A program made the position numbers and the translations under genes. Shown here piece after piece: positions 42,471-63,018 of a stretch of 64,000 nt of DNA. The first letter of the stretch is position 1, and each line of letters starts with the position of its first letter. The notes beneath the pieces are model-generated. The model worked only from the letters and a program-made list of their open reading frames with translations. It was not told where the DNA came from and searched no databases. The stretch is from the NCBI GenBank assembly GCA_049889215.1, contig JBMHDV010000027.1, positions 29,594 to 93,593 of the forward strand, given 5' to 3'. This DNA is from Candidatus Marinamargulisbacteria bacterium. GTDB lineage: Bacteria > Margulisbacteria > Marinamargulisbacteria > UBA817.

Positions 42471-44122
42471 AATGTTTGAGACACATTGAAGTGAACCATA
42501 AGCTCATCATTTCCAAAACCAAAATCCAATCGTAAAGGTATCACAGACTCTAACAATCGAACACCAAATCCGTACCCTCGATACAATTGATCAAACAATT
42601 GATTGAATTCATCATTTATAAATCCACCATCTAAAAATAAAACTCCAGCAATATTTTGTGATAATCGTTGCCTTAATTCAAAATTAAAAGATAAACGATA
42701 GTTTCCAAGAAAAGAAAACTCATTGTATCCTCTCAGTGAATTTGCGCCACCTAACGAAAACCGCTCAGTTTCAAATGTTGATTCTTGGCCTAATTTTTTA
42801 TATCTACCCCCAAAAAGTTGAACTGCAAATGTCGATTGATTAAGCGTATAAAAGTAAGCATTTGTTAGACGAAACCGATGAAATGAAATCCCACCTAAAT
42901 CAATAAGTCCCAAGTTGCCTCCAATATCATAATTCAATGCAATTCGATGCCCAAATGTGGGATATTGAAAATGATCAACTTTGTTTTGATCCAATAAAAA
43001 AGAGATGGATCGTGTGGTATAGCCAGAAAAGTCACCGTCATCTTGCGGAACTACAGTCTCATTGCGTAAGGTGGTGGCAATTGCCAAATATTGACGCTTA
43101 ATTTGATGCATGAACGACACTGCACCACCTGAACGAATAGTTTTATAAATAGTTAAATCCTCTTGATAAACTTCAGAAAGAAATCTTTTGTAAAAACTAA
43201 TGTCAAATGAAACTGGAAAAGAATTAAATAACCAAGGTTGATTATATCGAAATTTATACGCTCGAGTCTCTACATTGTTTAAATAACCCAACTGGAATTG
43301 CAACTCTATAAAATCTGTGTAAATAAACCGGTTGTACCACTTAAGCTTAGAAAATAGAGCCACACCTTTATCATCTTCCAATTCCTCTAAACCAATATCC
43401 AACATATTTTGCTTTCGCTCCCTTATCTGATACGCTAATCGAACATTATCCGATGAAACCATCTCAATGGTTGGTCCGTTGACACTACTAAAGTTTGACA
43501 ATTGCGATAATGATTCAAGATCAATATCTAAAATTCGCCGATTGAGCTGATCACCGTTTGATAACAAAAGTTCACGATAAATAACCCAAGACGGGGTTGT
43601 ATCCAATCCCATAACGACAATCTCACTGATTGTAGGTGACTCAATCATAATCGTCATTGTTCCAGCATCAGAAACCGAAATTGATTTAACGGATGCGGTA
43701 ATATATCCCCAATCAACCAATTGTTTATTAATTGCAGCAACATCATCTTTTAAATATTTAAAGTTTAAATAGTCACCAGATGTATGAGCCATCACCATCG
43801 TCAGTTGACGCATTGGAATTGGAGAACCAACAACATGAATTTTTGTTATCACCGGGTTATACTGAATATTAACAACTAACCGACTACCTCGCTTCTTCTT
43901 ATCAAATTGAAATGTTATGGATTGATATACACCATTCTGTCGAATTTGATTTAAAAAAGCTTCAACTTGCTGCTCAGATGAAATCACCCCATTAAACCGA
44001 GAATTTATCTTTGAAATCAAAAACTGATCATCTGTCCCAGTCACAGCAACCGACTGAATAAAGGCCGAATGAGCAGCAGTAGAAAAATAAATAAATAAAA
44101 AGATATTAAAAAGAATACGCAT
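42467..44122 (-). CDS. Omp85-family outer membrane protein (BamA/TamA-like)
   Basis: Signal peptide, POTRA-like N-terminal region, C-terminal beta-barrel ending in aromatic residue (NVSQTF). Confidence 0.75.
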   Translation of the reverse strand: MRILFNIFLFIYFSTAAHSAFIQSVAVTGTDDQFLISKINSRFNGVISSEQQVEAFLNQIRQNGVYQSITFQFDKKKRGSRLVVNIQYNPVITKIHVVGSPIPMRQLTMVMAHTSGDYLNFKYLKDDVAAINKQLVDWGYITASVKSISVSDAGTMTIMIESPTISEIVVMGLDTTPSWVIYRELLLSNGDQLNRRILDIDLESLSQLSNFSSVNGPTIEMVSSDNVRLAYQIRERKQNMLDIGLEELEDDKGVALFSKLKWYNRFIYTDFIELQFQLGYLNNVETRAYKFRYNQPWLFNSFPVSFDISFYKRFLSEVYQEDLTIYKTIRSGGAVSFMHQIKRQYLAIATTLRNETVVPQDDGDFSGYTTRSISFLLDQNKVDHFQYPTFGHRIALNYDIGGNLGLIDLGGISFHRFRLTNAYFYTLNQSTFAVQLFGGRYKKLGQESTFETERFSLGGANSLRGYNEFSFLGNYRLSFNFELRQRLSQNIAGVLFLDGGFINDEFNQLFDQLYRGYGFGVRLLESVIPLRLDFGFGNDELMVHFNVSQTF

Positions 44123-47100: not shown

Positions 47101-48809
47101 GCAATGCCACGCCCTTTTAGCTGACTTTCAAACACCCCATTAAAGCCCTGCTCTGACCAAGAAACCTCACCTTTAGATTCCATTTCTTCCAAATAATACG
47201 CCTGCTGATCTGGCTGAGCTAGTTGCCCAAGGCCTGACTGATTAAACGATAAACCAGCTGAACTTAACTTTCCCGAAAACTCAAGGGCTTGGCCATTCGA
47301 CAAATAAACACTAAAAACAGGCAATTTCAACACTTGTTTTTCCTGCCTCAAAATAGCTTTTATTTTTTTTATTGTAATTCCATAAAAAGTTAAATTTAAT
47401 TGATCAAGATTAAATTCGGTTTGATTGTTTTTAGAGTCTGAGGCAAGATAAATATTTGCTGTCACTTCTGAATTAAGTACAGGAACAAAAAGAGGTAATC
47501 CTGCCAATTCAATATGATAATCATTCTTATAAATATTACCCGATACCTCATAAGATGATGATGACAAAGAGGTGAGATACCCTGGTTGACCGTCTTTTGC
47601 CACCAACTTTAAATTTACCGGATCGATATTAATCAGCTTGGATTTAATTTCACTTGTTTTAAGATAAGTGGTAAAAGTTGGGCGTTGAAACAAACCCGTC
47701 AATTTAACCATAACTGATGCATCAAAATCTAAATCAGTTGGTGGCGCTAACTTTAAATATGAAAACACATCTTCTGGTTGAATGACACCGTCAGATGCCA
47801 TCGATAAATTAAACCGTCGGTTATAAAAAGAAATGTCCCCAGAAACATTAAACGGAACATCATGAATCATTGCCCGAATGTTTTTTAATATTAAGGAAGC
47901 TTCATTATGATTTGAAAAAACAACCTGACCAGATACATTTTTCAAAGGCACCTTAAATCGAGCTGGATTAATGGATAAATAATCAAAATTAATAGCAATA
48001 TTATAGAAAAACCTCTTTTTAATTGCTTTATTTGAATTGCTCTTTATTTGACCTGAAATCTGTAAAAAGTCATCAGAAATATTAACTTTTGAAAATGGGA
48101 CTAAATATGATGCCCAGTCATCCGTCACTAATGAAACAGCTTTAAAATCATACAAGTATTCAGTCCCCTGAATTTCACCCTGAATTGAACTTCGATCAGC
48201 AGATCCAGCAATAGAAAAATCAAAATCTAGCTTCACCTTTCTTGATGAATCAAATGCAATTGTCCCTTGCCCACTTGAAAAGGAAGACGAAAACTCCTGG
48301 GCGACTTTTCCCCAACCTCTAACATCCGTATACGTACCAGATATGTCGTTAAATTGAATTGTTAATCGTGATGGAGATGCCCCGCTCTCACCACTTTTCG
48401 AAGATAATGCTTTAACAAACTCAATGATATTAACTTTTTTTGATTCTAAGCGATTAACATTTAACAGAACCCCGTTAACATTTACTTTACCAATAATATC
48501 CGACAGACCATTGGTGATGAACCGCAATGACGGATAAATCGTAACTAAATCAGCTTTAATAAAATACGTTTGGTTCTTTACAGGTGCTTGACTGTAAATC
48601 ACTACATCTTTTAAAACAATTCCAGAAAACAAGTTTCCCGATAATTGTCTAAAATCGATAGGCCTAGCCAAAGCACGCTCAATACTTTTTTCTAAATTAT
48701 CTTTCGCTATTTTATTAATAAAAGGAACTTTTAACGCGTATCCTGATACCAAAGAAAAAACTAAAAATACAAAAGCAAAAAAAGTAGTCAGCCGAAACAA
48801 TCGTTTCAT
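44106..48809 (-). CDS. TamB/AsmA-like giant translocation-and-assembly protein
   Basis: 1567 aa, N-terminal signal-anchor, beta-rich repetitive body, C-terminal DUF490-like segment; directly upstream of Omp85 gene with 17-nt overlap. Confidence 0.7.
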   Translation of the reverse strand: MKRLFRLTTFFAFVFLVFSLVSGYALKVPFINKIAKDNLEKSIERALARPIDFRQLSGNLFSGIVLKDVVIYSQAPVKNQTYFIKADLVTIYPSLRFITNGLSDIIGKVNVNGVLLNVNRLESKKVNIIEFVKALSSKSGESGASPSRLTIQFNDISGTYTDVRGWGKVAQEFSSSFSSGQGTIAFDSSRKVKLDFDFSIAGSADRSSIQGEIQGTEYLYDFKAVSLVTDDWASYLVPFSKVNISDDFLQISGQIKSNSNKAIKKRFFYNIAINFDYLSINPARFKVPLKNVSGQVVFSNHNEASLILKNIRAMIHDVPFNVSGDISFYNRRFNLSMASDGVIQPEDVFSYLKLAPPTDLDFDASVMVKLTGLFQRPTFTTYLKTSEIKSKLINIDPVNLKLVAKDGQPGYLTSLSSSSYEVSGNIYKNDYHIELAGLPLFVPVLNSEVTANIYLASDSKNNQTEFNLDQLNLTFYGITIKKIKAILRQEKQVLKLPVFSVYLSNGQALEFSGKLSSAGLSFNQSGLGQLAQPDQQAYYLEEMESKGEVSWSEQGFNGVFESQLKGRGIAYNNQRFDAFDLGYQFDNQRHKFKINDLVYGTTKLSGEVKLYQKKPILLDLNFDQFDLMLLPKLTNSQLFGSFGGVATGYLLYDHASELNFKSKLNIQGFKLQYGQLGDVFLEVETNGGEITINQCRLSGLHELDLAGSLSSKGAFDVTQKKKGFFRLDALDFFSRQKLLGDVSVKGRFFGDLSDLNFDGLVESMDLELDGIPIQYLLFDGKKLGDTLTFDQFQVQLNRGRFLANGSIDFSKTASSDTFYSFYDLNMKAANLNLNTVSDIYYTIIKKLDDFTMQSQENEFFFNEAFDYHKYQHDNLQSFMQFYSQYQKKALADNKIKGLLSGYLSINNRDLGKNKIDIILTDFDYMQMVQADLMQLKSKDITDSIENYNFYVDQLVFNKVEVESLAIDLSYNKEKNTHEITNSLMQYLGKNYNGFLLGEYNYKDKWLDMGFEFSDASLNIFSGASAYIESLYNTGYVKWKFVGPIHNLSVRSLDVDFNDFELRVVSSNDGQSSVIQVPRYRYRVDSSVLSLDVLNVIWQGDHTFRRVTRENKKNEFNISGDIDLGPIDLMKKKAKVAYNLTMKDTFFSMNFPVFFSGDVLANQIKFQGDQTLYWEKNALENIKYSLGKANESGPQLSGSLIFRDGIFNLPKRTKNKTKPRILLDLTTTLGSGNYIQGSLVGDGIFRFANNIFLELDEKNRSAPFQISGSINSPQFTTSLYFYDGSISIFDGVYELMPKSQQNHFFKDVPEYVTDQRVDLSPIQDDGFQQMMVALNLRALRKIDTQVSSKNVRNDTLPYDAIGLSINGDLSGTAAKVTVFDFGLNNAFLTFPEYELYGTYDVDLMQTDVSGSQASYYGLNLLLPKIISNSEETDFTNYGRDRINTFIRSSLRPYERRFAKRVGLYDLRLNYDFGRTILSSDSDSKINEDLFGIQTVSNLYKEKLFLTLRSDLNLSTDYVNENARGVKLTRVDVTYYFQPNFSVSLKNANEYSEVTVFDPRWSLSYAYSF

Positions 48810-52163: not shown

Positions 52164-52514
52164 TTAAATCACCGTAGCAAGAATTTCTTTGTTAGAAACC
52201 GTTTGCTTATTAAACACATGATCAATATCATAGGCGTCCATTTCTTTTAAGGATAACTCAATCGACTGAGAGCTTAGAAAATTAACTCTAGACAAACAAG
52301 GCTTTGTTTTAATTTGCCGCACAAACTCTAAACCATTCATATTTGGCAACATTAATTCAGTAAAAATAACATCAACACTAGTTCGAGCTAAAAAAAGCAT
52401 TGCGTCTTTGGGGCAAAATAGCGAATATACCTCAACTGGATATTTCGCTAATAATTCAATAAAGCGACAGTGAACACTTACATCAACATCAATAATTAAA
52501 ATTCGTTGATTCAA
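52164..52514 (-). CDS. Orphan receiver (REC) domain protein with Glu in place of the phospho-acceptor Asp
   Basis: ILIIDVDV acidic pocket, DVIFTELMLPNMNGLEF aligning to CheY ISDWNMPNMDGLEL with D57 replaced by E; TTG start. Confidence 0.6.
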   Translation of the reverse strand: MNQRILIIDVDVSVHCRFIELLAKYPVEVYSLFCPKDAMLFLARTSVDVIFTELMLPNMNGLEFVRQIKTKPCLSRVNFLSSQSIELSLKEMDAYDIDHVFNKQTVSNKEILATVI

Positions 52515-52537
52515 ACTAATCCTTTTAGAAGAGGTTT

Positions 52538-52565
52538 AGTTCTAGTATAACAAAGAATTAGAACT
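52538..52565. promoter_or_regulatory. Inverted repeat in divergent promoter region between REC and XRE genes (candidate operator)
   Basis: agttcta ... tagaact, 7-bp arms with 14-bp spacer. Confidence 0.25.
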
Positions 52566-52616
52566 CATTCAATTCTACTTATTTACAATCACGATAATTT
52601 TTTTTATAATTTTAAT

Positions 52617-53267
52617 ATGGGAAGATTTGGATCAACACTTAAGCGACTTCGTGAAAATAGAAGCATATCAAAAGTTAAACTTGCTAAATGCATTGGCACT
52701 TCCGACGCATACATTCGCCAAGTTGAAAACCAAGGCTACAAACCACCAACATTTGATCTTTGTGAGAAGATATCTTCAGAACTATCATTAACTAATAACG
52801 AGAAACTTGAACTTTATGAAGCTGCTTTTATGGAAAGAATCGAATCTGAAAAAGAATTTTATAGCTTATTAAAAAATTCTATTTTTTCAAGCAGAAACCT
52901 TCCATCTACAGCATCAACAAATGTGATTACCGCAAGGTTAAAACTGCGCCAAACAGTTAAAGAAGATTTATCTTCTATTTCTTATGATGTAGAGCGTATA
53001 TTTTTTGATTATTTCCAAAAAAGCAACATTTCTATCGATAACATTGTAATTAATCAATCAAGCGTTACTTTAAATATAATGGATCAAGAAGCAACAACAG
53101 TTGAAGCAAATTTACCGAATATAATGAAACTGATTTCAAGCAAAATTAAAAGTGATTTTCCAAATTTTGCTGTCGCACCTTCGATTTGGGACAGTAATTT
53201 CGAAGTCATAAAAATATCAGAAACAGCCCAAGCCCGAACTGATAATCATGAATTATCTCGTGTTTAA
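52617..53267 (+). CDS. XRE-family HTH protein with uncharacterised C-terminal domain
   Basis: N-terminal LKRLRENRSISKVKLAKCIGTSDAYIRQVENQ HTH_XRE pattern; stop 9 nt before STAND gene. Confidence 0.7.
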   Translation: MGRFGSTLKRLRENRSISKVKLAKCIGTSDAYIRQVENQGYKPPTFDLCEKISSELSLTNNEKLELYEAAFMERIESEKEFYSLLKNSIFSSRNLPSTASTNVITARLKLRQTVKEDLSSISYDVERIFFDYFQKSNISIDNIVINQSSVTLNIMDQEATTVEANLPNIMKLISSKIKSDFPNFAVAPSIWDSNFEVIKISETAQARTDNHELSRV

Positions 53268-53276
53268 CCACGTTAA

Positions 53277-56200
53277 ATGAGTCCAACAAAATCAAATATT
53301 TTACAACTAACAAATATTTTAAATTCAAACCTAAATGAATTTTTAATTGTATCAATACAATTAATTCAAAAACTAAAACAAAGCAGCACATCGCCAAGTT
53401 TCATCACACCAGAGCAAATTATTTTAGAGAAAAGTAATAACAAGTATTCAATTGAAATAAATGACAATAAGGACAGTGACCCATTTGCAATAGACATCTA
53501 TAAATCACCTGAACAAAAAGAAAAAATTGATCGAGCCGTTGATCATCGATCCACATTTTACTCACTTGGTGTTATTTTTCACTTGATTTTAACTAAAGAA
53601 TATCCATTAAGCTTAGGAAACATTATTAGCATTAACTTTCCTTCAAACTCAACAGCGCCTCAATCTGTTCAACTCATTATTGAAAAATTATTGTGCCGGT
53701 ATCCCGAAGACCGCTACCAATCTTATGAAGGGCTTATATTAGATTTAGAAAAATGCTTAAATGCATTTGAAAAAACAGGTAATATCCCCCTATTCTTACC
53801 CGGAATAGATGACAAACCCATTGATCTAAAATTCGAACATTATTTATACGGCCGAGCAGTTGAAGTTGACTATATACAGAAATCAATTGAATCAATAAAA
53901 AAACAGAACAGTGCAGGACTTTTAATCATTCATGGTCCCTCGGGAATTGGTAAAACCCTACTTGCAAAGCATGTCATTAATAAGATAAATGTTGAAAACA
54001 AACTAGTCATTAAAACAAAACTAAATGCAACAAATGAATCGTCAATCGATTGTATTACAGATATTGTTTCAGCCATGGTAAATATTTCAAAAGAACACGC
54101 CTCTGATCGTAAACTGACAGAAAAACTAAAAAAAATAACCATAAAACATAACCGGTTATTGGAAACATTATTATCCAAAACAGAACTTGAATCACAAATT
54201 TCAAGAGAAACCATGCAATCAAAAACATTGAACTTAACTAATTTGCTTATCGACTTTTTCCAAATCATAACAGAAAAAAATACACTAATAATACAAATTG
54301 ATGACATTCAATGGTTAAATTCAGCCTCAAAAACCTCCTTAATGATGGCAACTTCCTATATTTCAAAAAATTTAATTACCATTGCTACATCCAGAAAAGA
54401 ATTTAAACCAAAAGCATCACTATTAAATCAACTATTTCCCAACGAAAAAATATCGGAAAACTTAATTGCTTCATTCAATAATTTAATTACATTTTTAGTG
54501 CCAGTGGCAGGATTAGGTATTCAAGAAATAACAGAACAAGTTCAAGATCTTTTACTGTGTAAAAAAGAAGAAGCCAATCGATTAGCAATTATTCTTCACA
54601 ACAAAACAGGTGGAAACCCTTTGTATATTCAAGAACTTTTAATTTCATTTAAAGAAAAAAATCTGCTTTGGCATGACAATAAATCAAAAGAGTGGACTTG
54701 GAAAATGTCAGAATTAGAAAAAGAAAAGGTAACAGAGAATGTTGCTGATCTTTTAATCAATAAAATTAAAACATTACCAATGACTACTCAAAAGATTTTG
54801 CATTATGCAAGTTTAATTGGAAATAAGTTTAATACATCAATAATTGCAAGCGCCCTTAAAGAAGATATGATTGCAATAGATCTAGCCCTATGGCATGCTT
54901 CAGCAAAAAAATTAATCGTATCAACCAATGAGCAACTAAAAGACCAAGAATATACGTTTTTACATGATAAAATTCAATCTGCCTGCCTTAATGATCAATT
55001 ATTTAATATCCTAGAATCCCATAAAATTATCGGAAAATCTTTATTGAAAAAATATGGGAAAGAAACATCAACAAACCATTTAACTAAAATTACATATCAC
55101 CTAAACCAAAGCGTTGGTCAATTGGATAATAATGAAATAAACGAACTCATTTATTTAAACCAAATCTGTGGTAATCAATTGTTAAAAAACTTGGTTGATC
55201 CGGACGCAGAAAAATACTTTTCAACAGCTATTAATCTCTACCATTCTTACTCAGTAAATAATACTTCTTTGCTAGAAAAGTTATATTTTTCAAATATAAC
55301 AGCTCATCAATTAAATGGTAGTACAACAAAAGCTCTAGAAATTATTAAAAAGATAAATAAAGAAATACCAAGTACAGAAAATTATCAAAAAACTCTGTTA
55401 ATACGGCTGATGATTATAACAAGTGAAACAAATTACAAAGACGCATTAACGCTTGGAATTTCGACACTGCGCTCATCAAGTCCAAATTTAAAACTTATCC
55501 CATCAACGCTTAGCATCGCTACTCAACTTATATCAACTACAATAAAGACATTTTTTAACATAAACCGACTAAAAGATCTGCCTCGAAAAAAATCGGAAAA
55601 AGCTATTTTTGAATCACAAATTCATTGTGAGTTAACTGACAGCGCATATTTTTTCAACAAAAAAACATATGTTCAATTAATTTGTAATAATATAAACCTT
55701 GTTTTTAAAAAGGGAATCTCAAAAGATACTCCTTTCATGCTGCTACAGTTCGCTAATTTACTTGTAATAAAGTTTAAACTATTTAATCTATCAAAAAAGA
55801 TATGCCAAATTGCACTAATCATTATTGAGGAATTTAAACACTCAAAATATACATTTCAAACTAGGTTTATATACTCAACTTTTATTTGCCGTTGGTTTGA
55901 AGATGAAGAAAACGTAATTAACGAACTTAATAAAAGTATAAAAAACTGCAAAGACAATAACCTTCTTTCATTTGCAATTTATTCAATTTTTCAAAATGTA
56001 CTGGTGATGCTAGGTGCAGGTAAGCCATTAGAAAATATCGAGAAATTTATTTTTAAACACAACCCATTTGTTTATTCTGTCGACTTTTTAGATACAATCC
56101 TTGCTCTAGAAATCTCAAAATGCTACATACAATCTCTTAAAAGTGGTCAAAAAAACTATCAATCATCCATATTTAATGAAAACATTGCCGTGAAAAAAAT

Positions 56201-56765
56201 GAAGGAAAATGGTTTAACTGTTTCATATGGCTGGTATATGAGCTCCAAATTAAAAACAAACTATTTTCTTGAAGATTTTGAAAATGCAAAAGCATTTGGA
56301 AATCAAACAGAAGAGTGTCTAGACTATTTATTGGGCCTAAACGAAGTGGAAGAGTTTCATTTATATCGATCACTTTCAATTTTGAATGATGCAACTAAAA
56401 GAAATCTTAAACTAACTAAAAGACAAAAAAAGCAAATTAAATCATCTATAAAATATTTTAAGCAATGGTCAAAACAAAATGCACAGAATTATGAACATAA
56501 ATACCAATTATTAACAGGGGCCCAACTTGAATATCAAAAAAAGTACAAAAAGGCTGAGTTATCATTCAAAAGAAGCCTAGAAATGGCCCATTTTAAAAAT
56601 CAAATTACGATAAAGGCACTAGCGTTGGAACACCTTGGAAAAATGAAAAAAAGACAGTGTGATCCAAACGCAAAATACATACTTCAAGATGCCATAAAAA
56701 GTTATTCAAAATGGGGAGCAAAAGAAAAAGAAAAACAACTTTCAAAAATACTTGAACAAATTTAA
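53277..56765 (+). CDS. STAND/AAA_16-type NTPase with N-terminal pseudokinase remnant and C-terminal helical repeats (PknK/MalT-like architecture without DNA-binding domain)
   Basis: Kinase C-lobe-like YKSPEQ...HRSTFYSLGVIFHLILT...YPEDRYQSYEGLILDL with HRD and DFG replaced; Walker A IHGPSGIGKTLL; Walker B LIIQIDDIQW; long helical C-terminus. Confidence 0.75.
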   Translation: MSPTKSNILQLTNILNSNLNEFLIVSIQLIQKLKQSSTSPSFITPEQIILEKSNNKYSIEINDNKDSDPFAIDIYKSPEQKEKIDRAVDHRSTFYSLGVIFHLILTKEYPLSLGNIISINFPSNSTAPQSVQLIIEKLLCRYPEDRYQSYEGLILDLEKCLNAFEKTGNIPLFLPGIDDKPIDLKFEHYLYGRAVEVDYIQKSIESIKKQNSAGLLIIHGPSGIGKTLLAKHVINKINVENKLVIKTKLNATNESSIDCITDIVSAMVNISKEHASDRKLTEKLKKITIKHNRLLETLLSKTELESQISRETMQSKTLNLTNLLIDFFQIITEKNTLIIQIDDIQWLNSASKTSLMMATSYISKNLITIATSRKEFKPKASLLNQLFPNEKISENLIASFNNLITFLVPVAGLGIQEITEQVQDLLLCKKEEANRLAIILHNKTGGNPLYIQELLISFKEKNLLWHDNKSKEWTWKMSELEKEKVTENVADLLINKIKTLPMTTQKILHYASLIGNKFNTSIIASALKEDMIAIDLALWHASAKKLIVSTNEQLKDQEYTFLHDKIQSACLNDQLFNILESHKIIGKSLLKKYGKETSTNHLTKITYHLNQSVGQLDNNEINELIYLNQICGNQLLKNLVDPDAEKYFSTAINLYHSYSVNNTSLLEKLYFSNITAHQLNGSTTKALEIIKKINKEIPSTENYQKTLLIRLMIITSETNYKDALTLGISTLRSSSPNLKLIPSTLSIATQLISTTIKTFFNINRLKDLPRKKSEKAIFESQIHCELTDSAYFFNKKTYVQLICNNINLVFKKGISKDTPFMLLQFANLLVIKFKLFNLSKKICQIALIIIEEFKHSKYTFQTRFIYSTFICRWFEDEENVINELNKSIKNCKDNNLLSFAIYSIFQNVLVMLGAGKPLENIEKFIFKHNPFVYSVDFLDTILALEISKCYIQSLKSGQKNYQSSIFNENIAVKKMKENGLTVSYGWYMSSKLKTNYFLEDFENAKAFGNQTEECLDYLLGLNEVEEFHLYRSLSILNDATKRNLKLTKRQKKQIKSSIKYFKQWSKQNAQNYEHKYQLLTGAQLEYQKKYKKAELSFKRSLEMAHFKNQITIKALALEHLGKMKKRQCDPNAKYILQDAIKSYSKWGAKEKEKQLSKILEQI

Positions 56766-56810: not shown

Positions 56811-57329
56811 ATGCTTATTGACTTATTTGATGAAGAAAAAGAAAACCCAGATGATTATATATCATTTTTAGTATTTGAGCCTGCCTCACTAAGAATTCCT
56901 GATAATGACTTATTATTAATTGGTGACCCAGTCACAGACTTATTTAAAAAAGTAAATTTATCAGATAGTTTTAATTCATCCCTTCCAGATCAAATTTTAA
57001 AAAACCGCTTACAGAGAATAGAAATGATGATCGATTTACTCAAAAATAACGATGGTCTTATCATGACCAAATTTTTAAACAAAATTTGGAGAAGATATAG
57101 CTTTTTTAGTAACTTAGGTGAGCTATTTGTTACTCAAGGTGAACTTAAAAGATTAGTTCCGGATTACTCATTTAACGAAAACCCAATTTTAGAACGTTTC
57201 ATTTTAGAAGAGATCGACGAATCCGAAGATAATAATGAGGATGAAAACGACGATGAAAAGGAAAGTGAAACAACTGAAAATTCAGACTCTAAATCATCTT
57301 CAAAAAAAAGTGAAGTTGAAAGTAAGTAA
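56811..57329 (+). CDS. Hypothetical protein with strongly acidic C-terminal tail
   Basis: 172-aa ORF ending EEIDESEDNNEDENDDEKESETTENSD. Confidence 0.4.
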   Translation: MLIDLFDEEKENPDDYISFLVFEPASLRIPDNDLLLIGDPVTDLFKKVNLSDSFNSSLPDQILKNRLQRIEMMIDLLKNNDGLIMTKFLNKIWRRYSFFSNLGELFVTQGELKRLVPDYSFNENPILERFILEEIDESEDNNEDENDDEKESETTENSDSKSSSKKSEVESK

Positions 57330-57340
57330 GATTAAGTCTT

Positions 57341-58366
57341 TTGTCTTTTTCCTTATCTGATTTTGATTATTATCTACCAGATGCTCAAATCGCTCATACA
57401 CCCACTGAAAGAAGAGATAAATCTAAATTATTAAAATACAACAAATTAACAAAAGAAGTATCAGATCATACATTTGATGAATTTAGTGATTTAATCCCAA
57501 ACAATAGTGTTATCGTCTTTAATAATACAAAAGTACTGAAAGCTAGAGTAATATGCTACCGTGAGTCAGGTGCAAAAATAGAGTGTTTTTTTTTAAAAAA
57601 AATATCTGAAAAGAGATGGGAAGTTATAATAAAAAACAGTCGTCGAATTTCGAATAATGAAACACTAATCATCGATAAAAAAAACAGCATAAAAGTAATC
57701 GAAAAAAAAGACAAATGCGCCATTGTTTGCATAAAAAGTAACATGGAAGATTTTGAGTTTCTTGAAAATTTTGGAAAAACACCGCTTCCTCCATATATTA
57801 AAACCAAAGATCCAGATAAATTCCATGAACGATACCAAAGCATTTTTGCATCAAACCCCGGTGCTGTTGCCGCACCAACAGCAAGCTTACATTTTACAGA
57901 TAAAATATTTTCTCAACTTAAGTCAAAAAATATCGAAATATTATATGTTACCCTACATATTGGCTTAGGAACGTTTAATCCAATAACAAAAGAAAATATA
58001 ATTGATCATAAAATGCATAAAGAAAACTATTCCATAACTAAATCTACAGCAGCGAAATTAAACCAGGCAAAAAAAGAAAAAAAACCAATTTTTGCCGTGG
58101 GTACAACCGTTGCACGTTGCTTGGAATCAAATATCAAAGATAACCTATTTTCAGAACAAACAACAGACACAGACCTTTATATTTTTCCTGGCTATGAATA
58201 TAAAGGGATTGATGGCTTACTAACCAACTTTCACTTGCCTAAATCATCACTTTTTATTTTAGTTGCAGCCATGATTGGCCTTAAAAATATTCAAGATATT
58301 TATCAACATGCCATTGAACATGACTATCGTTTTTTTAGTTTTGGAGACGCAATGTTAATTTCATAA
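57341..58366 (+). CDS. queA: S-adenosylmethionine:tRNA ribosyltransferase-isomerase
   Basis: N-terminal FDYYLPDAQIAHTP, central TPLPPYIK, C-terminal QueA pattern. Confidence 0.9.
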   Translation: MSFSLSDFDYYLPDAQIAHTPTERRDKSKLLKYNKLTKEVSDHTFDEFSDLIPNNSVIVFNNTKVLKARVICYRESGAKIECFFLKKISEKRWEVIIKNSRRISNNETLIIDKKNSIKVIEKKDKCAIVCIKSNMEDFEFLENFGKTPLPPYIKTKDPDKFHERYQSIFASNPGAVAAPTASLHFTDKIFSQLKSKNIEILYVTLHIGLGTFNPITKENIIDHKMHKENYSITKSTAAKLNQAKKEKKPIFAVGTTVARCLESNIKDNLFSEQTTDTDLYIFPGYEYKGIDGLLTNFHLPKSSLFILVAAMIGLKNIQDIYQHAIEHDYRFFSFGDAMLIS

Positions 58367-61300
58367 TGGGATTTCGATGGCTAGCTTTAATATGTTTTCT
58401 TCATATTTCAATATGCGGCTCACAAATTTACATGCCAGGTTACCCCAAATATTCCATCATTACTTCGCATAATATAGAAGAACAGGCAACAACCAACAAT
58501 GTCTATCCAAAAGTAGATTCCTCGGGTTTTGTAGAGATGAAATTTTCTGGCCGGAATTATACGAAAGATCTAAATAAACTAGAAACAATCCGACAAGATC
58601 CATATTACAAAAAAATTCCAAATGAAGTTCAACCTGGCTCAAATAGTTTTAAAACTCGATATTTAATCGACTTAAATGGAGAACTTGATGAAAGTACATC
58701 TGTAAACGTTCATATTCAAAAGGAGCCAGAATTCCCAGGAGTTTATAACGTTAATATCAAACATAAGAAATCTGAAATTAGCTTTGGCGATTATAAAACT
58801 AACTACTCATCAGGTGAGTTTGTTAATGTGGAAAAATATCTTAATGGAGCTCAAGTTAGCTACACTGATGATCAATGGTACGGAAAAAGCAGTATTGGAT
58901 CAGAAAAGTCTGAGCCACAAAAGTTTGAAACATTTGGTAATAATTCAAAAACTTATAAAGTAGGGCGATCTTTTTTACTCGAAGGTTCAGTTATCGTTTA
59001 TGTAAATGGAGGTAATAATCCACTCACTGAAAACGTAGATTATACAGTGAATTATTATGATGGTTCTGTCACATTCAAAAAAGCAAAAACAAAGGTGGAT
59101 TTTATTCAGATTATTTATGAATTTACGAATCCAATTCAAGATTTTATACCTGCGCTTTCTCGCAAAGATTTTGTTGGATTAACATATATTTACAACCCAT
59201 CACAAAATGTTAATATCAACGAATTTATTTTGAAAAATGCCACAACAAATATACATATTTCAGATAACAAGGAAATACTTGAAAACCGCATCAAATTAAA
59301 AAAGTTACCGATAGAATTGGGCAGTGAAATAATTTACCACAACTCCAACCAATTAACGCAATCAAATGATTATCATATTGACTATAACTCTGGCATCATT
59401 CGATTTATTAAGAAGCCTTTAATAATCGATGATAGATTAAAAATTAGTTACACATATTTTGAAACAGGTAAATCTGAAGATCGATTTATTGGTAATGGTA
59501 CGCCTGGCCCCTATAAATTAAAGCATAAACATCCAATTACAGAATCATTAGAAATTCACTTGGGAGGTAAGCAGGCACGTGAATTTATTGATTATATTTA
59601 TAAAAAAGAAACAAATAGTATTCAGTTTATGTATGAAGTTTACTCTAATAAATTAATTAGAGTCACTTATAGATACAAAAAAGTTCAACAATCAAAAGTT
59701 AGCTTTAAAGATAGTCCCGTATCATACTCAGTCACATATCTTAATGAGTCAAATCGCATTAGAAAAGATGAATTGCAAAGCAAAGAAAACATAACCCCAA
59801 GCTCAATTACTGGAGTAAACAATAATATTATTGTTCTTCCAGATAACCCAATAGACTCAAATAAACCAATTCAATTAACCATTAATGGTTCAGATATTAG
59901 TGAATCAGAATATAGCGTCAATTATTACGAAGGCACAATCACCGTTTTAAATCAGTCAAATTTAACTCTTAATAATGTAAAAGTAAGCTACTCTAGTCAA
60001 AATAGTATTAATTCCGAACACTCCATTCAAGGATTAAGTATTTCTCAATACAATCAAGATCAAATCAAATTTAAGTCACTCCCAATAAAATACGATGGAA
60101 TACAAAAAATAACTCTATACTCACCTGAAGAAATGGTATTAGAAGAAGGTACAGAATACGAAATAATGTACATCAATAATGGCGAAAACTTTACCGACAT
60201 CCAAATTAAGTTCTTGCTAGGAAACTATTCTAGATTAACCAAATACCCATCAGGGTCCGATGTCATAAAATTTGATTACCTTTATACCCCATCGTCTGAT
60301 GACATACAATCAGAATCAAAACATGAAATAATTGACGTGCGATTAAAAAAGAAGATAAGGGATAACTGGAATATTTTTACTGAAATAGCAAATAGTAAAT
60401 ATAACTTTTCAAAAGCCACAGAATTTAAAAAAGAAACATTTAAAAATAACCAACCAAATAATATATATCAATTAAGTAATTCGCCCATTGAAGAAAACTC
60501 TGAGCTGGTATTTATTAATGGGTTTTCTCAATCAAAAGATAATGACTACTACATCAACTATGAACAAGGAATAATAACATTCATTAATAAAACAATCCCT
60601 GACGGTCAAACAGTTGAAATTTCATACAATTACTTCTTATCAAAAACAGCAAACATTGGGGATGCTAATGCATATTCAATTGAATCTGAATACAGCCCAA
60701 CATCATCAGTTATTATAAAAAACAAAATGAATAGTGTAGACCCAACGTTTCTGCCCATTGGTAATGCAAATATATCAAAGGGGATGTCAACTCAATCACA
60801 CGAAATAAACTGGAAATTTAACAAAAATGAATCAGCTCACTTTTTTTATAATAACGAAAAAATTAAAAATATTAACAATGAAAAGGTTTACGAAAAGAAC
60901 AGCTATATTTCAAAACTCGAACTTCAAGCGCTTGTATTTAAAACTACACATGAAATTCGATATGACGATATTGCATCAAGCGAAAATTACAAAGAAACAC
61001 CGAAAAAAATTATTGAATATAACAATGACATTATCTTAGACAACTTTAACGATCGTTGGACATTATCTAATCGAATATCTCAAAAAAATGAATCCGTGTC
61101 CTCCACAACCTCTCTTAATTCACTAATTGCATCAACAAAACTTAATTATTTAAAAACATTTGGCTATAAAAATTTGATAAAAGAAAGCACATTTAGCCCA
61201 TTTATTGGTATTGAATTAGATAAAACAAATACATCAACATTAAGCACTTACAATGAAAAAAGAATAGAAAATTTTGGATTGAATATAGATAGCACATTAA

Positions 61301-63018
61301 TATCAGATATTAAAAACACATCAAATTTTGAGAAAAGTATTCATAAAATTTATTTTATAGACAATAAACAGTTTATTTCTCCTTACTACAACTATAACTC
61401 TTTTACTCAAATTTCCCCGTTTGAATGGTTGAATACTAATATTAATATTAATCATGAGGAAAGTATTAGCCCAATACCAGGAATAGAAGATAAAGTTGAA
61501 GATCGCCAAGGATACAATATTGTGAGAATTGCCAATGATGCATTTCTTGAATATTCAAATGTCCCTGATTTTATTTATAAACAATTTAAAAATAGTTACT
61601 CAAGCCTTGGTTATTTAAAAACGAAACGTCGAGAAAACAATGCTTTAAAAAAATATAAGGAAGATCGATTATTTACAACAATCAATAACCTTACTTTTGT
61701 TGAATGGGTAAAAATACCCAAAATTAAATATAACGCCTATGTATCTGATCTTGTAGATAAAAAAGAAACATCATATCAATCTGAAAGCATCTCAAAAACA
61801 GACTTTAAAGAAGTAAATACAAATTTTACAATTAAACCAAACGTAAATATTCTAAATAAGCTTTCATTTGATGGAGATTATAAATATTCCAAATCAACAT
61901 TAGACTCTCAACTAACATTAACCAGTGGAACAGTAAACAATACAGAATCCATTGTTTCAAAAGATCAACAAACCTATGGCTTAAACATCAACTTACCCAA
62001 TATCCCATTGGGGATAACTACTATCGCATCACCAACTCTCCGAATTGAAACAAAATGGAATAATACAATCGACAAAAACTCAACAAAATCATCCGATCAA
62101 GAAAATAACTCATTTTTAATCAATAATAGCTTTGTCTCAGCCAACGCACTAAATCTTCAATACCAACTGTTTAAAAAAACTAAAATCAAAAATACCTTTT
62201 TAAGTGAAAATTCTTTTTTTAACCGAAACAAAATAAGCTCATCAACTGGGTCATTATTCAAAACAAGACAATCAGCAGATCAATCGATTAAGTATCCAAT
62301 GTTTAATTTTCTTCAAAATACTGAATATATTAAATTTGAAGCCTTAAGACAATACAAAAATAATCAAATTAATATAATGCCAAAAACGATCAAGTCAAAT
62401 TATAATAACTTTCTATCATTGGATGAGTTATTAGCTTCTCACGAATCAATGTTAAACTTATCAAGATTTTTTTCTATTAATGGAAATATTGAATACAAAA
62501 AGTTAGATCAAAACTCCACCAATGAAAATACCGAAAACCCTCACAAGCTATTCGAACAGAAAAAAGGAAGTGCTGGTGCGATTATTAAGCCACTTTCAGG
62601 CTTGGAGCTTCGTTATGACTATTCTTTAAAACAAATCAGTTCGAATACGATTGATACAAAACAAGGAAATGAAGAAAAAATTTCAATAATATATAACCCT
62701 ATAAAATACGACAATTTTGAAGTTCAATTTAATTTTTCTAAAGAAATAAACACAGGCAATGGCTTTAATGACATTCAAAAAGACATCTTATTTCAAACAA
62801 CAAACGAATCAATAGAATTAAATGTTATTCCAAGAAATGATGAGATTTACCTCAGTTCATTGAACCTAAACATAAATATTCCAAATAATATTAGTCCAAT
62901 TATCGAAAAAATATCATTTACAGGTGAAGGGTATTTTAAATATATTGTCGATCGAATTAATCCTGAAAACCAATTTTATATCAATGGCTTCCTATTTTCG
63001 TTTAAAATGGATTTATAA
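58366..63018 (+). CDS. Giant secreted/surface protein (1550 aa) with repeated ~50-aa beta-rich modules and beta-strand-like C-terminus
   Basis: Signal peptide MGFRWLALICFLHISICG; repeats such as VIVYVNGGNNPLTENVDYTVNYYDGSVTF, LVFINGFSQSKDNDYYINYEQGIITF; ATG overlaps queA stop (TAATG). Confidence 0.7.
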   Translation: MGFRWLALICFLHISICGSQIYMPGYPKYSIITSHNIEEQATTNNVYPKVDSSGFVEMKFSGRNYTKDLNKLETIRQDPYYKKIPNEVQPGSNSFKTRYLIDLNGELDESTSVNVHIQKEPEFPGVYNVNIKHKKSEISFGDYKTNYSSGEFVNVEKYLNGAQVSYTDDQWYGKSSIGSEKSEPQKFETFGNNSKTYKVGRSFLLEGSVIVYVNGGNNPLTENVDYTVNYYDGSVTFKKAKTKVDFIQIIYEFTNPIQDFIPALSRKDFVGLTYIYNPSQNVNINEFILKNATTNIHISDNKEILENRIKLKKLPIELGSEIIYHNSNQLTQSNDYHIDYNSGIIRFIKKPLIIDDRLKISYTYFETGKSEDRFIGNGTPGPYKLKHKHPITESLEIHLGGKQAREFIDYIYKKETNSIQFMYEVYSNKLIRVTYRYKKVQQSKVSFKDSPVSYSVTYLNESNRIRKDELQSKENITPSSITGVNNNIIVLPDNPIDSNKPIQLTINGSDISESEYSVNYYEGTITVLNQSNLTLNNVKVSYSSQNSINSEHSIQGLSISQYNQDQIKFKSLPIKYDGIQKITLYSPEEMVLEEGTEYEIMYINNGENFTDIQIKFLLGNYSRLTKYPSGSDVIKFDYLYTPSSDDIQSESKHEIIDVRLKKKIRDNWNIFTEIANSKYNFSKATEFKKETFKNNQPNNIYQLSNSPIEENSELVFINGFSQSKDNDYYINYEQGIITFINKTIPDGQTVEISYNYFLSKTANIGDANAYSIESEYSPTSSVIIKNKMNSVDPTFLPIGNANISKGMSTQSHEINWKFNKNESAHFFYNNEKIKNINNEKVYEKNSYISKLELQALVFKTTHEIRYDDIASSENYKETPKKIIEYNNDIILDNFNDRWTLSNRISQKNESVSSTTSLNSLIASTKLNYLKTFGYKNLIKESTFSPFIGIELDKTNTSTLSTYNEKRIENFGLNIDSTLISDIKNTSNFEKSIHKIYFIDNKQFISPYYNYNSFTQISPFEWLNTNININHEESISPIPGIEDKVEDRQGYNIVRIANDAFLEYSNVPDFIYKQFKNSYSSLGYLKTKRRENNALKKYKEDRLFTTINNLTFVEWVKIPKIKYNAYVSDLVDKKETSYQSESISKTDFKEVNTNFTIKPNVNILNKLSFDGDYKYSKSTLDSQLTLTSGTVNNTESIVSKDQQTYGLNINLPNIPLGITTIASPTLRIETKWNNTIDKNSTKSSDQENNSFLINNSFVSANALNLQYQLFKKTKIKNTFLSENSFFNRNKISSSTGSLFKTRQSADQSIKYPMFNFLQNTEYIKFEALRQYKNNQINIMPKTIKSNYNNFLSLDELLASHESMLNLSRFFSINGNIEYKKLDQNSTNENTENPHKLFEQKKGSAGAIIKPLSGLELRYDYSLKQISSNTIDTKQGNEEKISIIYNPIKYDNFEVQFNFSKEINTGNGFNDIQKDILFQTTNESIELNVIPRNDEIYLSSLNLNINIPNNISPIIEKISFTGEGYFKYIVDRINPENQFYINGFLFSFKMDL

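What the first reader, a model, noticed from the sequence alone, without database searches (positions are those of the whole stretch)
52164..56765. Candidate undescribed signalling or defence module: atypical REC + XRE-HTH + pseudokinase-STAND ATPase
Three genes form a compact divergent unit. An orphan receiver domain sits on the minus strand; an XRE-HTH gene and a 1162-aa STAND ATPase sit on the plus strand, separated by 9 nt. A 7-bp inverted repeat lies in the shared promoter. The locus is visibly more AT-rich than the flanking housekeeping genes. STAND NTPases with helical sensor repeats serve as signal-integrating regulators (MalT, AfsR, PknK) and as antiphage sensors (Avs, bacterial NLR-like). 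Here the DNA-binding function is on a separate XRE protein and the usual N-terminal effector position holds a dead kinase fragment. I do not recognise this combination as a described system.
Basis: partly seen in the sequence, partly recalled or inferred. Interest (0 to 1): 0.7.

Follow-up and report, generated by a model that had tools for sequence, protein, structure and literature searches.

The report
Pseudokinase-STAND switch with domesticated-transposase regulator
In an uncultured marine Margulisbacteria genome, a large ATP-driven switch protein with a dead half-kinase at its tip is always encoded next to a DNA-binding protein built from an inactivated transposase, usually with a small receiver protein, and this looks like an undescribed but modestly surprising gene-regulation module rather than an antiviral defence system.

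Summary
The three genes exist exactly as described: REC 52164-52514(-), XRE 52617-53267(+), STAND 53277-56765(+), with a 9-nt gap. The domain calls hold, and the STAND fold is confirmed by a confident AlphaFold model. Two supporting observations fail. The 7-bp inverted repeat is expected by chance (P~0.3) and is not conserved. The locus is no more AT-rich than its downstream neighbours.

The genome is Marinamargulisbacteria. The trio sits at a fixed site (AsnC | trio | orf172-queA) in six of seven related loci; the seventh lacks REC. All flanks are housekeeping, with no PADLOC system and no viral hits.

The STAND protein is a stripped-down member of the huge kinase-AAA_16-GAF-output family ("dual protein kinases"). 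It has lost the kinase N-lobe, every catalytic residue and the output domains.

Best reading: a regulatory module in which the STAND switch controls a separate HTH-TnpA output. It is a new variant of a known kind. The defence reading is not supported.

The parts
52164..52514 (-). Orphan single-domain receiver (REC), 116 aa, TTG start preceded by AAGGA. The phospho-acceptor position is Glu ('FTELMLP'); Ser and Lys are kept at the other signature positions.
   Evidence: Pfam Response_reg E=7e-10. Orthologue alignment shows Glu in window/L019/L020/L022 and Asp in L001/L021. The gene is absent in L003.
52515..52616 (.). 102-bp divergent promoter region. The sigma70-like XRE promoter has TTTACA at 52582-52587 and TATAAT at 52605-52610, ending 7 nt before the ATG, so the mRNA may be leaderless. 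The REC promoter on the minus strand has TTGAAT at 52572-52567 and TATACT at 52549-52544.
   Evidence: Promoter scan scores 11/12 and 9/12. The blocks conserved among orthologues coincide with the REC -35 and -10 hexamers.
52538..52565 (.).
   Evidence: Present. Chance-level, P=0.31-0.37. Not conserved in L001, L003, L020, L021 or L022.
52617..52790 (+). XRE-type HTH domain of the 216-aa regulator (residues 1-58), followed by a long connecting helix (residues 60-89).
52923..53216 (+). C-terminal domain of the regulator (residues 103-200). It has the IS200/IS605 TnpA (Y1 HUH) fold but is catalytically dead: no HUH histidines ('VTLNIM') and no catalytic-Tyr helix.
53301..53786 (+). N-terminal kinase C-lobe remnant of the STAND protein (residues ~9-170, helices alphaE to alphaI). 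The N-lobe is absent and the catalytic loop and DFG are replaced; 'SPEQ' and 'YPEDRYQS' are retained.
   Evidence: NCBIfam PknB positions 174-271 and PADLOC PD-T4-6 C-terminal parts only. Alignment with P0117/P0114 shows an N-lobe deletion of about 80 aa. This is one of the best-conserved domains, 50% identical to P0001.
53844..55001 (+). STAND nucleotide-binding/oligomerisation module. The NBD has Walker A GPSGIGKT and Walker B IQIDDIQW. The helical domain has the GNPLY motif. The winged helix carries an FLHD (MHD-like) His.
   Evidence: AAA_16 E=4e-12. G220, G223, G225, K226, D342 and H563 are invariant across 65 family members. Foldseek PDB top hits are STAND-TPR 6mfv, Apaf-1 and MalT.
55002..56765 (+). 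C-terminal all-helical (TPR-like) sensor domain, residues 576-1162. It ends at the family's conserved '...WGA...' motif, exactly where relatives continue into GAF and output domains.
   Evidence: AF2 model pLDDT is mostly above 90 and all-helical. The C-terminal extension is 0 here, against 300-1500 aa in relatives.

Best explanation
This is a vertically inherited, chromosomal signal-transduction module of Marinamargulisbacteria. Its conserved core is two translationally coupled genes.

Gene 1 encodes a transcription factor. It has an XRE helix-turn-helix, a long helix, and a domesticated, catalytically dead IS200/IS605 TnpA domain. I infer that this domain serves as the dimerisation and/or partner-binding module.

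Gene 2 encodes a STAND ATPase switch. It descends from the kinase-AAA_16-GAF-output family ('dual protein kinases'). It has lost the kinase N-lobe, all catalytic residues and the C-terminal output domains. It keeps intact ATP-binding motifs, a 590-residue helical sensor and the substrate-docking C-lobe of the kinase.

Proposed mechanism (inferred, not shown): a cytoplasmic signal is read by the helical sensor and flips the STAND module from a closed ADP state to an open ATP state, which oligomerises. The exposed kinase C-lobe remnant then binds or releases the HTH-TnpA protein and/or the small receiver. This changes transcription from the divergent promoter and probably from other targets. Output is thus delivered in trans by the HTH-TnpA protein, in place of the fused GAF-histidine kinase, GGDEF or AraC outputs of relatives.

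The divergently transcribed orphan receiver is an accessory third partner. In this sub-clade its phospho-acceptor Asp is fixed as Glu, so it probably acts without phosphorylation.
For: Shown.
- Gene order AsnC-REC-XRE-STAND-orf172-queA is conserved in L001 and L019-L022, and XRE-STAND without REC in L003. STAND identity there is 29-42%, against 53-73% for the flanking genes.
- XRE and STAND are 9 nt apart here and overlap by 4-11 nt in L001, L003 and L024.
- Full-length homologues of the HTH-TnpA protein (E=1e-22, 3e-20, 7e-11) lie next to or within 1.3 kb of the nearest non-Margulis relatives P0117, P0114 and P0168. All three are pseudokinase-STANDs without output domains.
- In L026/L027 the HTH-TnpA gene is again divergent from a degenerate REC. 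Its intergenic region carries a perfect 23-bp palindrome plus a second related site, as expected for a dimeric HTH operator.
- Walker A/B, GxP and the WHD His are invariant.
- The STAND fold is confirmed.
- The kinase remnant is one of the most conserved domains, 50% identical.
- Relatives carry fused outputs including AraC HTH and REC, which shows that DNA-binding and receiver functions belong to this family's repertoire.
- Output-less members are nearly always pseudokinases: 21 of 22 against 136 of 207, Fisher p=0.003, in a biased sample.
- Housekeeping surroundings, no defence hits and no viral relatives.
Against: No physical or functional interaction between the three proteins has been tested; the linkage is purely genomic.

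No conserved operator could be identified in the Margulisbacteria intergenic regions. The conserved blocks there are explained by the REC promoter hexamers.

The partnership is not general. Three other short or output-less relatives (P0236, P0153, P0174) have no HTH-TnpA or REC neighbour, although the P0153 contig is very short.

In L026 and L028 the partner is separated from the STAND gene by 2 metabolic genes and lies on the opposite strand.

The L026 REC match is below Pfam's threshold.

The signal and the regulon are unknown.
Confidence: 0.5

Rival explanations
1. It is an antiphage STAND (Avs- or bacterial NLR-like) sensor whose expression is controlled by an adjacent XRE regulator. The helical domain would recognise a phage protein and oligomerisation would trigger a toxic response.
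Against: There is no effector: the N-terminal domain is a dead half-kinase and no nuclease, protease, TIR or pore domain is present. PADLOC gives no system match. The position is fixed and syntenic between housekeeping genes across deeply diverged genomes, with no neighbouring defence or mobile genes. There are no relatives in 2.9 million viral contigs. The parent family consists of signalling proteins with GAF-HK, GGDEF and cyclase outputs.
Confidence: 0.1
2. The genes are neighbours without forming one machine. The XRE-TnpA protein is an ordinary local (auto)regulator, the REC belongs to an unlinked two-component pathway, and the STAND protein acts alone as a scaffold or chaperone-like ATPase.
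For: REC is dispensable, being absent in L003. Several relatives of the STAND protein lack both partners. Synteny within one phylum of small genomes could simply reflect a lack of rearrangement, since the flanks are equally syntenic.
Against: The HTH-TnpA family is tiny: 21 clusters in 5.8 billion proteins by profile search. Yet it was found beside pseudokinase-STAND genes in four independent lineages with otherwise different neighbourhoods. Start/stop overlaps suggest translational coupling. The REC/HTH-TnpA divergent arrangement recurs in L026.
Confidence: 0.25
3. The STAND gene is a decaying remnant of a multidomain sensor kinase in a reduced genome, and is no longer functional.
For: It has lost the kinase N-lobe, the catalytic residues and GAF/output domains relative to most of the family. 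Marinamargulisbacteria genomes are small, 0.5-2 Mb (PMC6784892).
Against: A 3.5-kb ORF is intact in every accurately assembled orthologue (window, L001, L003) despite divergence of 58-71%. The ATPase motifs are invariant. The kinase remnant is more conserved than the protein average. The AF2 model is confident throughout, with mean pLDDT 86.6.
Confidence: 0.05
4. It is a transposition-related system. The TnpA-like protein would act on DNA, with the STAND ATPase as its regulator, by analogy with transposase/AAA+ pairs such as IstA/IstB or TnsB/TnsC.
For: The C-terminal domain of the XRE protein is homologous to the IS200/IS605 TnpA transposase.
Against: The HUH histidines and the catalytic tyrosine helix are missing in all members examined. 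The locus is single-copy and positionally fixed, and no TnpB was seen among neighbouring genes. No structured RNA was detected in the locus.
Confidence: 0.03

Closest known systems
Cyanobacterial 'dual protein kinases' (cbSTKIII: HstK/Alr2258, Pkn40, Pkn41), annotated by NCBI as 'trifunctional serine/threonine-protein kinase/ATP-binding protein/sensor histidine kinase'
   Same: Homologous over 93% of the window protein at 22-25% identity: kinase C-lobe, linker, AAA_16 NOD and the long helical domain up to the 'WGA' motif. Margulisbacteria are the sister lineage of Cyanobacteria (PMC6349859, PMC6784892).
   Different: The window protein lacks the kinase N-lobe (~85 aa), all catalytic residues, the GAF domain and any HisKA/HATPase, GGDEF, cyclase, PP2C or AraC output. 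It is paired with a separate HTH-TnpA protein instead.
MalT-type STAND transcription activators (MalT; also AfsR, GutR and PknK, from general knowledge)
   Same: A STAND NOD plus helical sensor controlling transcription. The MalT structure 8bob is among the best Foldseek matches, E=8e-8.
   Different: MalT carries its LuxR-type HTH on the same polypeptide and has no kinase-like domain. Here the HTH is on a separate XRE/TnpA-fold protein, and coupling between the two is inferred only.
Antiphage STAND NTPases (Avs, bacterial NLR-like/bNACHT)
   Same: Tripartite logic of N-terminal domain, STAND NTPase and C-terminal helical repeats, with structural similarity to Apaf-1 and NLRs.
   Different: No effector domain, no defence-island context, no PADLOC model match, and vertical inheritance at a housekeeping locus.
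IS200/IS605 TnpA, REP-associated tyrosine transposases (RAYT) and TIRYT Y1-HUH proteins
   Same: The C-terminal domain of the XRE protein has the same fold and detectable sequence homology, including the 'P-x-[IL]-W' strand. HTH-fused Y1 proteins are known (PMC6006769).
   Different: The known fusions carry C-terminal DnaA-like, HTH_23 or HTH_28 domains and retain catalytic motifs. Here the HTH is N-terminal and XRE-type, HUH and Tyr are lost, and the gene is linked to a STAND ATPase rather than to REP or IS ends.
Phosphorylation-independent (atypical) response-regulator receivers (e.g. ChxR, HP1043, NblR; from general knowledge)
   Same: A receiver fold with a substituted phospho-acceptor (Glu for Asp) and no cognate histidine kinase nearby.
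   Different: It is a stand-alone receiver with no output domain. Sister lineages (L001, L021) keep Asp, so the requirement for phosphorylation apparently differs within the clade.

Membership tests
STAND NTPases (Leipe et al. 2004 definition) | P-loop NTPase with Walker A and Walker B (hhhhDD) | tested here: met
   GPSGIGKT and IQIDDIQW; G220, G223, G225, K226 and D342 are invariant in a 65-sequence family alignment. AAA_16 E=4e-12.
STAND NTPases (Leipe et al. 2004 definition) | NBD followed by a helical domain (GxP) and a winged-helix domain with a conserved His, then a repeat 'sensor' arm | tested here: met
   GNPLY motif, with G446/N447/P448 nearly invariant, and the FLHD His563 invariant. 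The AF2 model (pLDDT 86.6) matches STAND-TPR 6mfv, Apaf-1 and MalT. Residues 576-1162 are all-helical.
STAND NTPases (Leipe et al. 2004 definition) | ATP-dependent oligomerisation on signal binding | not testable with these tools
   Needs biochemistry or cryo-EM.
Dual protein kinases / 'trifunctional STK-ATPase-sensor HK' (cbSTKIII) | Catalytically competent N-terminal Ser/Thr kinase domain (both lobes, VAIK Lys, HRD, DFG) | tested here: not met
   No N-lobe, and the catalytic loop reads 'SFITPEQII' and DFG reads 'IND'. Pfam Pkinase is not detected.
Dual protein kinases / 'trifunctional STK-ATPase-sensor HK' (cbSTKIII) | Central AAA_16 + long helical region homologous across the family | tested here: met
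   93% query coverage and E down to 1e-67 with family members. Profile search finds 5,572 clusters at E<=1e-30.
Dual protein kinases / 'trifunctional STK-ATPase-sensor HK' (cbSTKIII) | GAF domain followed by HisKA/HATPase (or another enzymatic output) | tested here: not met
   The protein ends at the 'WGA' motif, with a C-terminal extension of 0 aa. No GAF or HK Pfam hits.
Antiphage STAND systems (Avs / bNACHT and other PADLOC systems) | Match to a curated defence-protein model | tested here: not met
   PADLOC gives only partial PD-T4-6 (kinase C-lobe) and generic HTH hits.
Antiphage STAND systems (Avs / bNACHT and other PADLOC systems) | N- or C-terminal cell-killing effector domain | tested here: not met
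   No nuclease, protease, TIR, SIR2 or pore domain appears in Pfam or NCBIfam.
Antiphage STAND systems (Avs / bNACHT and other PADLOC systems) | Variable, island-like or mobile genomic context | tested here: not met
   Same site between asnC and queA in 7 loci. Housekeeping neighbours. No viral-contig relatives.
Antiphage STAND systems (Avs / bNACHT and other PADLOC systems) | Protection against phage | not testable with these tools
   Requires heterologous expression and a phage challenge.
IS200/IS605 TnpA (Y1 HUH transposases) | TnpA alpha/beta fold | tested here: met
IS200/IS605 TnpA (Y1 HUH transposases) | HUH metal-binding motif and catalytic tyrosine | tested here: not met
   HUH aligns to 'VTLNIM' and equivalents, with no His in any member. 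The alignment ends before the Tyr helix and the C-termini are not conserved.
IS200/IS605 TnpA (Y1 HUH transposases) | Association with IS ends or REP hairpins, and multiple copies | tested here: inconclusive
   Single fixed locus and no TnpB among neighbours. A genome-wide search for REP-like hairpins was not possible with a 64-kb window.
XRE-family transcription factors | Five-helix Cro/C1-type HTH | tested here: met
XRE-family transcription factors | Sequence-specific binding to a palindromic operator | tested here: inconclusive
   No conserved palindrome in the Margulisbacteria promoters. There is a strong 23-bp palindrome in L026 only.
Two-component response regulators | Receiver fold with an acidic pocket, phospho-acceptor Asp, Thr/Ser and Lys | tested here: not met
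   Response_reg E=7e-10, but the acceptor is Glu in the window, L019, L020 and L022; Ser and Lys are present. Asp is kept in L001 and L021.
Two-component response regulators | Cognate histidine kinase | tested here: inconclusive
   None adjacent, and none among the 10 ORFs scanned from the next 20 kb upstream (31-44 kb). The rest of the genome is not available.

The most novel reading that the evidence does not exclude
This would be a previously unrecognised three-part signalling system scattered across several uncultured bacterial lineages. A domesticated, catalytically dead IS200-type transposase domain fused to an XRE HTH serves as the detachable DNA-binding output of a pseudokinase-STAND ATPase. 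The retained kinase C-lobe acts purely as a docking surface, a phosphorylation-based relay having been converted into a binding-based one. A degenerate receiver is the third partner.
Probability: 0.4. Interest if true: 0.65.

Novelty: new variant of a known kind. Interest (0 to 1): 0.5.

Why it matters
If the genomic linkage reflects a physical one, three points follow.

First, a multidomain 'one-protein' sensor (kinase-STAND-GAF-output) can be dismantled into a minimal ATP switch plus a trans-acting transcription factor.

Second, it would be a rare bacterial case in which only the substrate-docking lobe of a protein kinase is kept as an adaptor.

Third, it would add a clear example of domestication of an IS200/IS605 transposase domain into a regulator.

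The module is retained in the very small genomes of Marinamargulisbacteria. This phylum has no cultured members and includes an intracellular animal symbiont (PMC6784892). The module may therefore be one of their few dedicated signal-integration devices.

The parent family has thousands of members, about two thirds of the sampled ones with degenerate kinase motifs, and is almost uncharacterised mechanistically. A minimal member would be a convenient entry point for studying it.

Tried and rejected
- Reference-genome scan with the single STAND sequence: no confirmed hits. I re-anchored on the conserved neighbour orf172 instead.
- Exact-sequence look-up of the window STAND protein: not on record.
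- Sequence search of PDB with the STAND protein: nothing at E<=0.01.
- Shared operator search among the Margulisbacteria divergent promoters: no k-mer of 7 or more is shared by at least 4 lineages. The aligned conserved blocks are the REC promoter hexamers.
- Idea that the XRE C-terminal half is the missing kinase N-lobe, from a split gene: rejected, because it is a TnpA fold.
- Idea that all short, N-lobe-less and output-less STANDs form one clade: rejected. P0168, P0236 and P0153 are each closest to full-length members.
- Idea that every output-less pseudokinase-STAND has the HTH-TnpA partner: rejected. P0236, P0153 and P0174 do not.
- Weak Pfam MC4 (ABC-3C) and NCBIfam LIC13197 hits in the XRE protein: treated as noise, E>0.003 and superseded by the Y1_Tnp assignment.
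- First literature search was too unspecific and one call had a syntax error.
- Cluster records gave no organism names for L024, L026 or L028.
- Rfam and tRNA scans found nothing in the locus.

Full report
OBSERVATION

REC is at 52164-52514 on the minus strand (116 aa, TTG start). The XRE gene is at 52617-53267 on the plus strand (216 aa). The STAND gene is at 53277-56765 on the plus strand (1162 aa), starting 9 nt after the XRE stop.

Pfam finds Response_reg (E=7e-10), HTH_3 (E=4e-6) and AAA_16 (E=4e-12, residues 190-354), with weaker NB-ARC, NACHT and nSTAND hits. The only kinase signal is to the C-terminal lobe: residues 75-163 match PknB model positions 174-271, and they match the C-terminal parts of the PADLOC PD-T4-6 kinase models.

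Two supporting details do not hold. The 7-bp inverted repeat (AGTTCTA 52538-52544 / TAGAACT 52559-52565) is real. However, a repeat at least that good appears in 31-37% of shuffled sequences, and it is absent from the orthologous promoters. The trio's GC content (0.29-0.33) is lower than that of the upstream thrC and aminotransferase genes, but it is the same as asnC, orf172, queA and the large downstream gene. There is no compositional island.

WHOSE GENOME, AND IS THE TRIO CONSERVED?

The STAND protein has a single close homologue in 5.8 billion proteins: P0001, 42% identical. Its contig shows identical gene order, asnC - REC - XRE - STAND - 170-aa ORF - queA.

I used the highly conserved neighbour orf172 as an anchor. 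This retrieved two reference MAGs labelled Candidatus Marinamargulisbacteria and Margulisiibacteriota. One of them, L003, has XRE-STAND at the same site but no REC. The other, L002, has an unrelated small ORF directly upstream of the anchor.

The XRE protein family comprises only 16 clusters, all from metagenomes. Four long contigs carrying it (L019-L022) again show asnC-REC-XRE-STAND-orf172-queA. These are error-prone long-read assemblies, and all of their genes appear fragmented.

Amino-acid identity between the window and L001 is 37% for REC, 44% for XRE and 42% for STAND. For AsnC, QueA, orf172 and the large downstream protein it is 65%, 59%, 73% and 53%.

The wider surroundings are housekeeping genes: Omp85/TamA-like, a TamB-like giant, HolA, a sigma54 activator, MetRS, MreB and TGT. 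Neither the STAND nor the XRE profile finds relatives in the viral contig collection. PADLOC reports no system.

The module is therefore vertically inherited and chromosomal. Its core is XRE+STAND, and REC is usually but not always present.

THE STAND PROTEIN

All other homologues are proteins of 1,500-2,000 aa. Their architecture is Pkinase-AAA_16-helical region-GAF followed by histidine kinase, GGDEF, cyclase, PP2C or AraC outputs, and some have a fused REC. They align over 93% of the window protein at 22-25% identity. NCBI names them 'trifunctional serine/threonine-protein kinase/ATP-binding protein/sensor histidine kinase'. In cyanobacteria they are the cbSTKIII 'dual protein kinases' (HstK, Pkn40, Pkn41), of which little more than expression patterns is known (PMC2176072).

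An exhaustive profile search finds 17,334 representative clusters at E<=1e-3 and 5,572 at E<=1e-30. Relative to them, the window protein starts about 85 residues later, so it has no kinase N-lobe. It ends exactly at the conserved 'WGA' motif that closes the helical region, so it has no GAF or output domain. The catalytic loop and DFG equivalents read 'SFITPEQII' and 'IND'.

Walker A (GPSGIGKT), Walker B (IDDIQW), the GNP motif and the winged-helix His (FLHD) are invariant or nearly so across 65 family members.

The AlphaFold model is confident, with mean pLDDT 86.6 and pTM 0.66. Its best PDB matches are a STAND-TPR protein (6mfv), Apaf-1, MalT (8bob), ORC/Cdc6 and plant NRC NLRs.

The kinase remnant is not decaying. 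It is 50% identical between the window and P0001, against 36% for the NBD and 38% for the sensor.

N-lobe-less and output-less forms arose repeatedly. P0168, P0236 and P0153 are each closest to full-length members, and L005 is an N-lobe-less form that still has GAF-GGDEF. Among 229 sampled members, 21 of 22 output-less proteins have a degenerate catalytic loop, against 136 of 207 output-bearing ones (Fisher p=0.003). The sample is biased, because it was retrieved with a pseudokinase-derived profile.

The partner of the distant short STAND P0168 (locus L024) is a 243-aa protein that overlaps the STAND start by 11 nt. It hits both HTH_3 and Y1_Tnp, the IS200-like transposase family (33 bits, cut-off 23). 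Three Margulisbacteria orthologues score just below threshold. The window XRE protein aligns with it over its full length (E=7e-11).

The AlphaFold model of the window protein has pLDDT 81.6. It shows a five-helix HTH, a long helix, and a beta-alpha-beta-beta-alpha-beta domain.

A profile of five C-terminal domains hits ISHp608 TnpA at E=1e-10. In that alignment the HUH histidines fall on non-histidine positions, and the match stops before the catalytic-tyrosine helix. The family alignment confirms that neither feature is conserved.

The domain is thus a domesticated, catalytically dead TnpA. Because IS200-type TnpA proteins are obligate dimers (established knowledge), the simplest inferred role is dimerisation and/or partner binding for the HTH.

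The 2018 survey of Y1-HUH proteins describes C-terminal DnaA-like and HTH_23/28 fusions. In my term search of that paper I found no N-terminal XRE fusion and no kinase or STAND link (PMC6006769).

THE ASSOCIATION RECURS OUTSIDE THE PHYLUM

The closest outgroups of the Margulisbacteria STAND clade are P0117 (1256 aa) and P0114 (1266 aa). They have both kinase lobes but degenerate motifs, and no output domain.

Each has a 241-242-aa HTH+Y1_Tnp gene 1.2-1.3 kb away on the opposite strand, beyond thioesterase, SDR or amidohydrolase genes. These proteins are full-length homologues of the window XRE protein (E=1e-22 and 3e-20).

In L026/L027 the HTH-TnpA gene is divergent from a 127-aa gene that is a degenerate receiver. 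It matches Response_reg over 100 of 111 positions at E=5.6e-4, which is below threshold. The 218-bp spacer there contains a perfect 23-bp palindrome plus a related second site.

The HTH-TnpA family is very small (21 clusters). Meeting it beside pseudokinase-STAND genes in four lineages with different GC content (0.29-0.46) and different neighbours is therefore hard to ascribe to chance. I could not quantify this with a census.

The link is not universal. P0236, P0153 (on a short contig) and P0174 lack both partners.

THE RECEIVER

The phospho-acceptor is Glu in the window, L019, L020 and L022 ('TEL'), and Asp in L001 and L021 ('CDI'). The substitution is therefore fixed in a sub-clade and is not a lesion.

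No histidine kinase is adjacent, and none is among the 10 ORFs I scanned from the next 20 kb upstream (31-44 kb). Some relatives of the STAND protein carry a fused REC.

PROMOTERS

A strong sigma70-like promoter (TTTACA-17-TATAAT) ends 7 nt before the XRE ATG, and no Shine-Dalgarno sequence is present, so the mRNA may be leaderless.

A back-to-back promoter for REC (TTGAAT-17-TATACT) accounts for the sequence blocks conserved among orthologues. Rfam finds no structured RNA in the locus.

INTERPRETATION

The best-supported reading (confidence about 0.5) is a regulatory module. A STAND ATP switch has been stripped of catalytic kinase and output domains. It communicates through its retained kinase C-lobe with a separate HTH-dead-TnpA transcription factor, and a phosphorylation-independent receiver is an accessory partner.

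Shown: the domain identities, the motif conservation, the synteny, the recurrence of the pairing, and the absence of defence hallmarks.

Inferred: every interaction, the direction of control, the signal, and the regulon.

Rivals are a defence reading (about 0.1), unlinked neighbours (about 0.25), gene decay (about 0.05) and a transposition-related role (about 0.03). The remainder is unassigned.

NOVELTY AND SCORE

Each building block is known: the STAND NOD, the XRE HTH, the receiver, the TnpA fold, and pseudokinases. The STAND protein belongs to a huge, catalogued family. What I could not find described is the combination of a half-kinase adaptor, an output-less STAND and a trans-acting HTH-dead-TnpA partner, with or without a degenerate REC.

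I rate it a new variant of a known kind, with interest 0.5. It is a coherent and moderately surprising architecture found in an uncultured phylum, but there is no functional evidence and the lineage distribution is narrow.

Noticed in passing
window 56811-57329 (+): orf172 has no Pfam or NCBIfam hit. It is 61-73% identical across Margulisbacteria (L001, L002, L003), has an acidic low-complexity tail, and always sits immediately upstream of queA. In L002 an unrelated ORF lies directly upstream of it, so it is not part of the module.
   Followed up: partly
window 44106-48809 (-) and 58366-63018 (+): Two giant ORFs (1567 and 1550 aa) have no solid Pfam match. The first lies next to an Omp85/POTRA gene (TamB-like position; DUF748 is faint in L022). 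The second has a hydrophobic N-terminus (signal-peptide-like by eye) and is 53% identical to its L001 orthologue.
   Followed up: partly
window 52582-52619: The XRE promoter's -10 hexamer ends 7 nt before the ATG, and there is no Shine-Dalgarno sequence, which suggests a leaderless transcript. In L001 the -10 lies slightly further upstream.
   Followed up: no
L026 7055-7106: There is a perfect 23-bp palindrome, AATAGTAATGA-G-TCATTACTATT, and a second AGTAAT-N5-ATTACT site between the HTH-TnpA gene and a degenerate REC gene. This is a good candidate operator for this regulator family. L028 has an imperfect AGTAAA...TTTACT counterpart.
   Followed up: partly
L026 5129-6305; L028 3562-4754 and 9718-10140: 4HBT-type thioesterase and short-chain dehydrogenase genes accompany the pseudokinase-STAND and HTH-TnpA genes in both out-of-phylum loci. 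They may be regulated targets.
   Followed up: no
L005 258-4802: A 1514-aa protein starts at the kinase C-lobe with a degenerate catalytic loop ('LYLTPQNIL') but retains GAF and GGDEF domains. Loss of the N-lobe therefore also occurs in output-bearing family members.
   Followed up: partly
family-wide (proteins P0002-P0259): About two thirds (157 of 229) of the sampled kinase-AAA_16 family members fail a strict catalytic-loop motif. This large 'kinase' family may be predominantly pseudokinases. The sample is biased towards relatives of a pseudokinase query.
   Followed up: partly
window 38685-40238 (+): A sigma54-dependent activator has an N-terminal region of about 200 aa with no Pfam hit at 1e-5. 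It is another signalling protein with an unassigned input domain.
   Followed up: no
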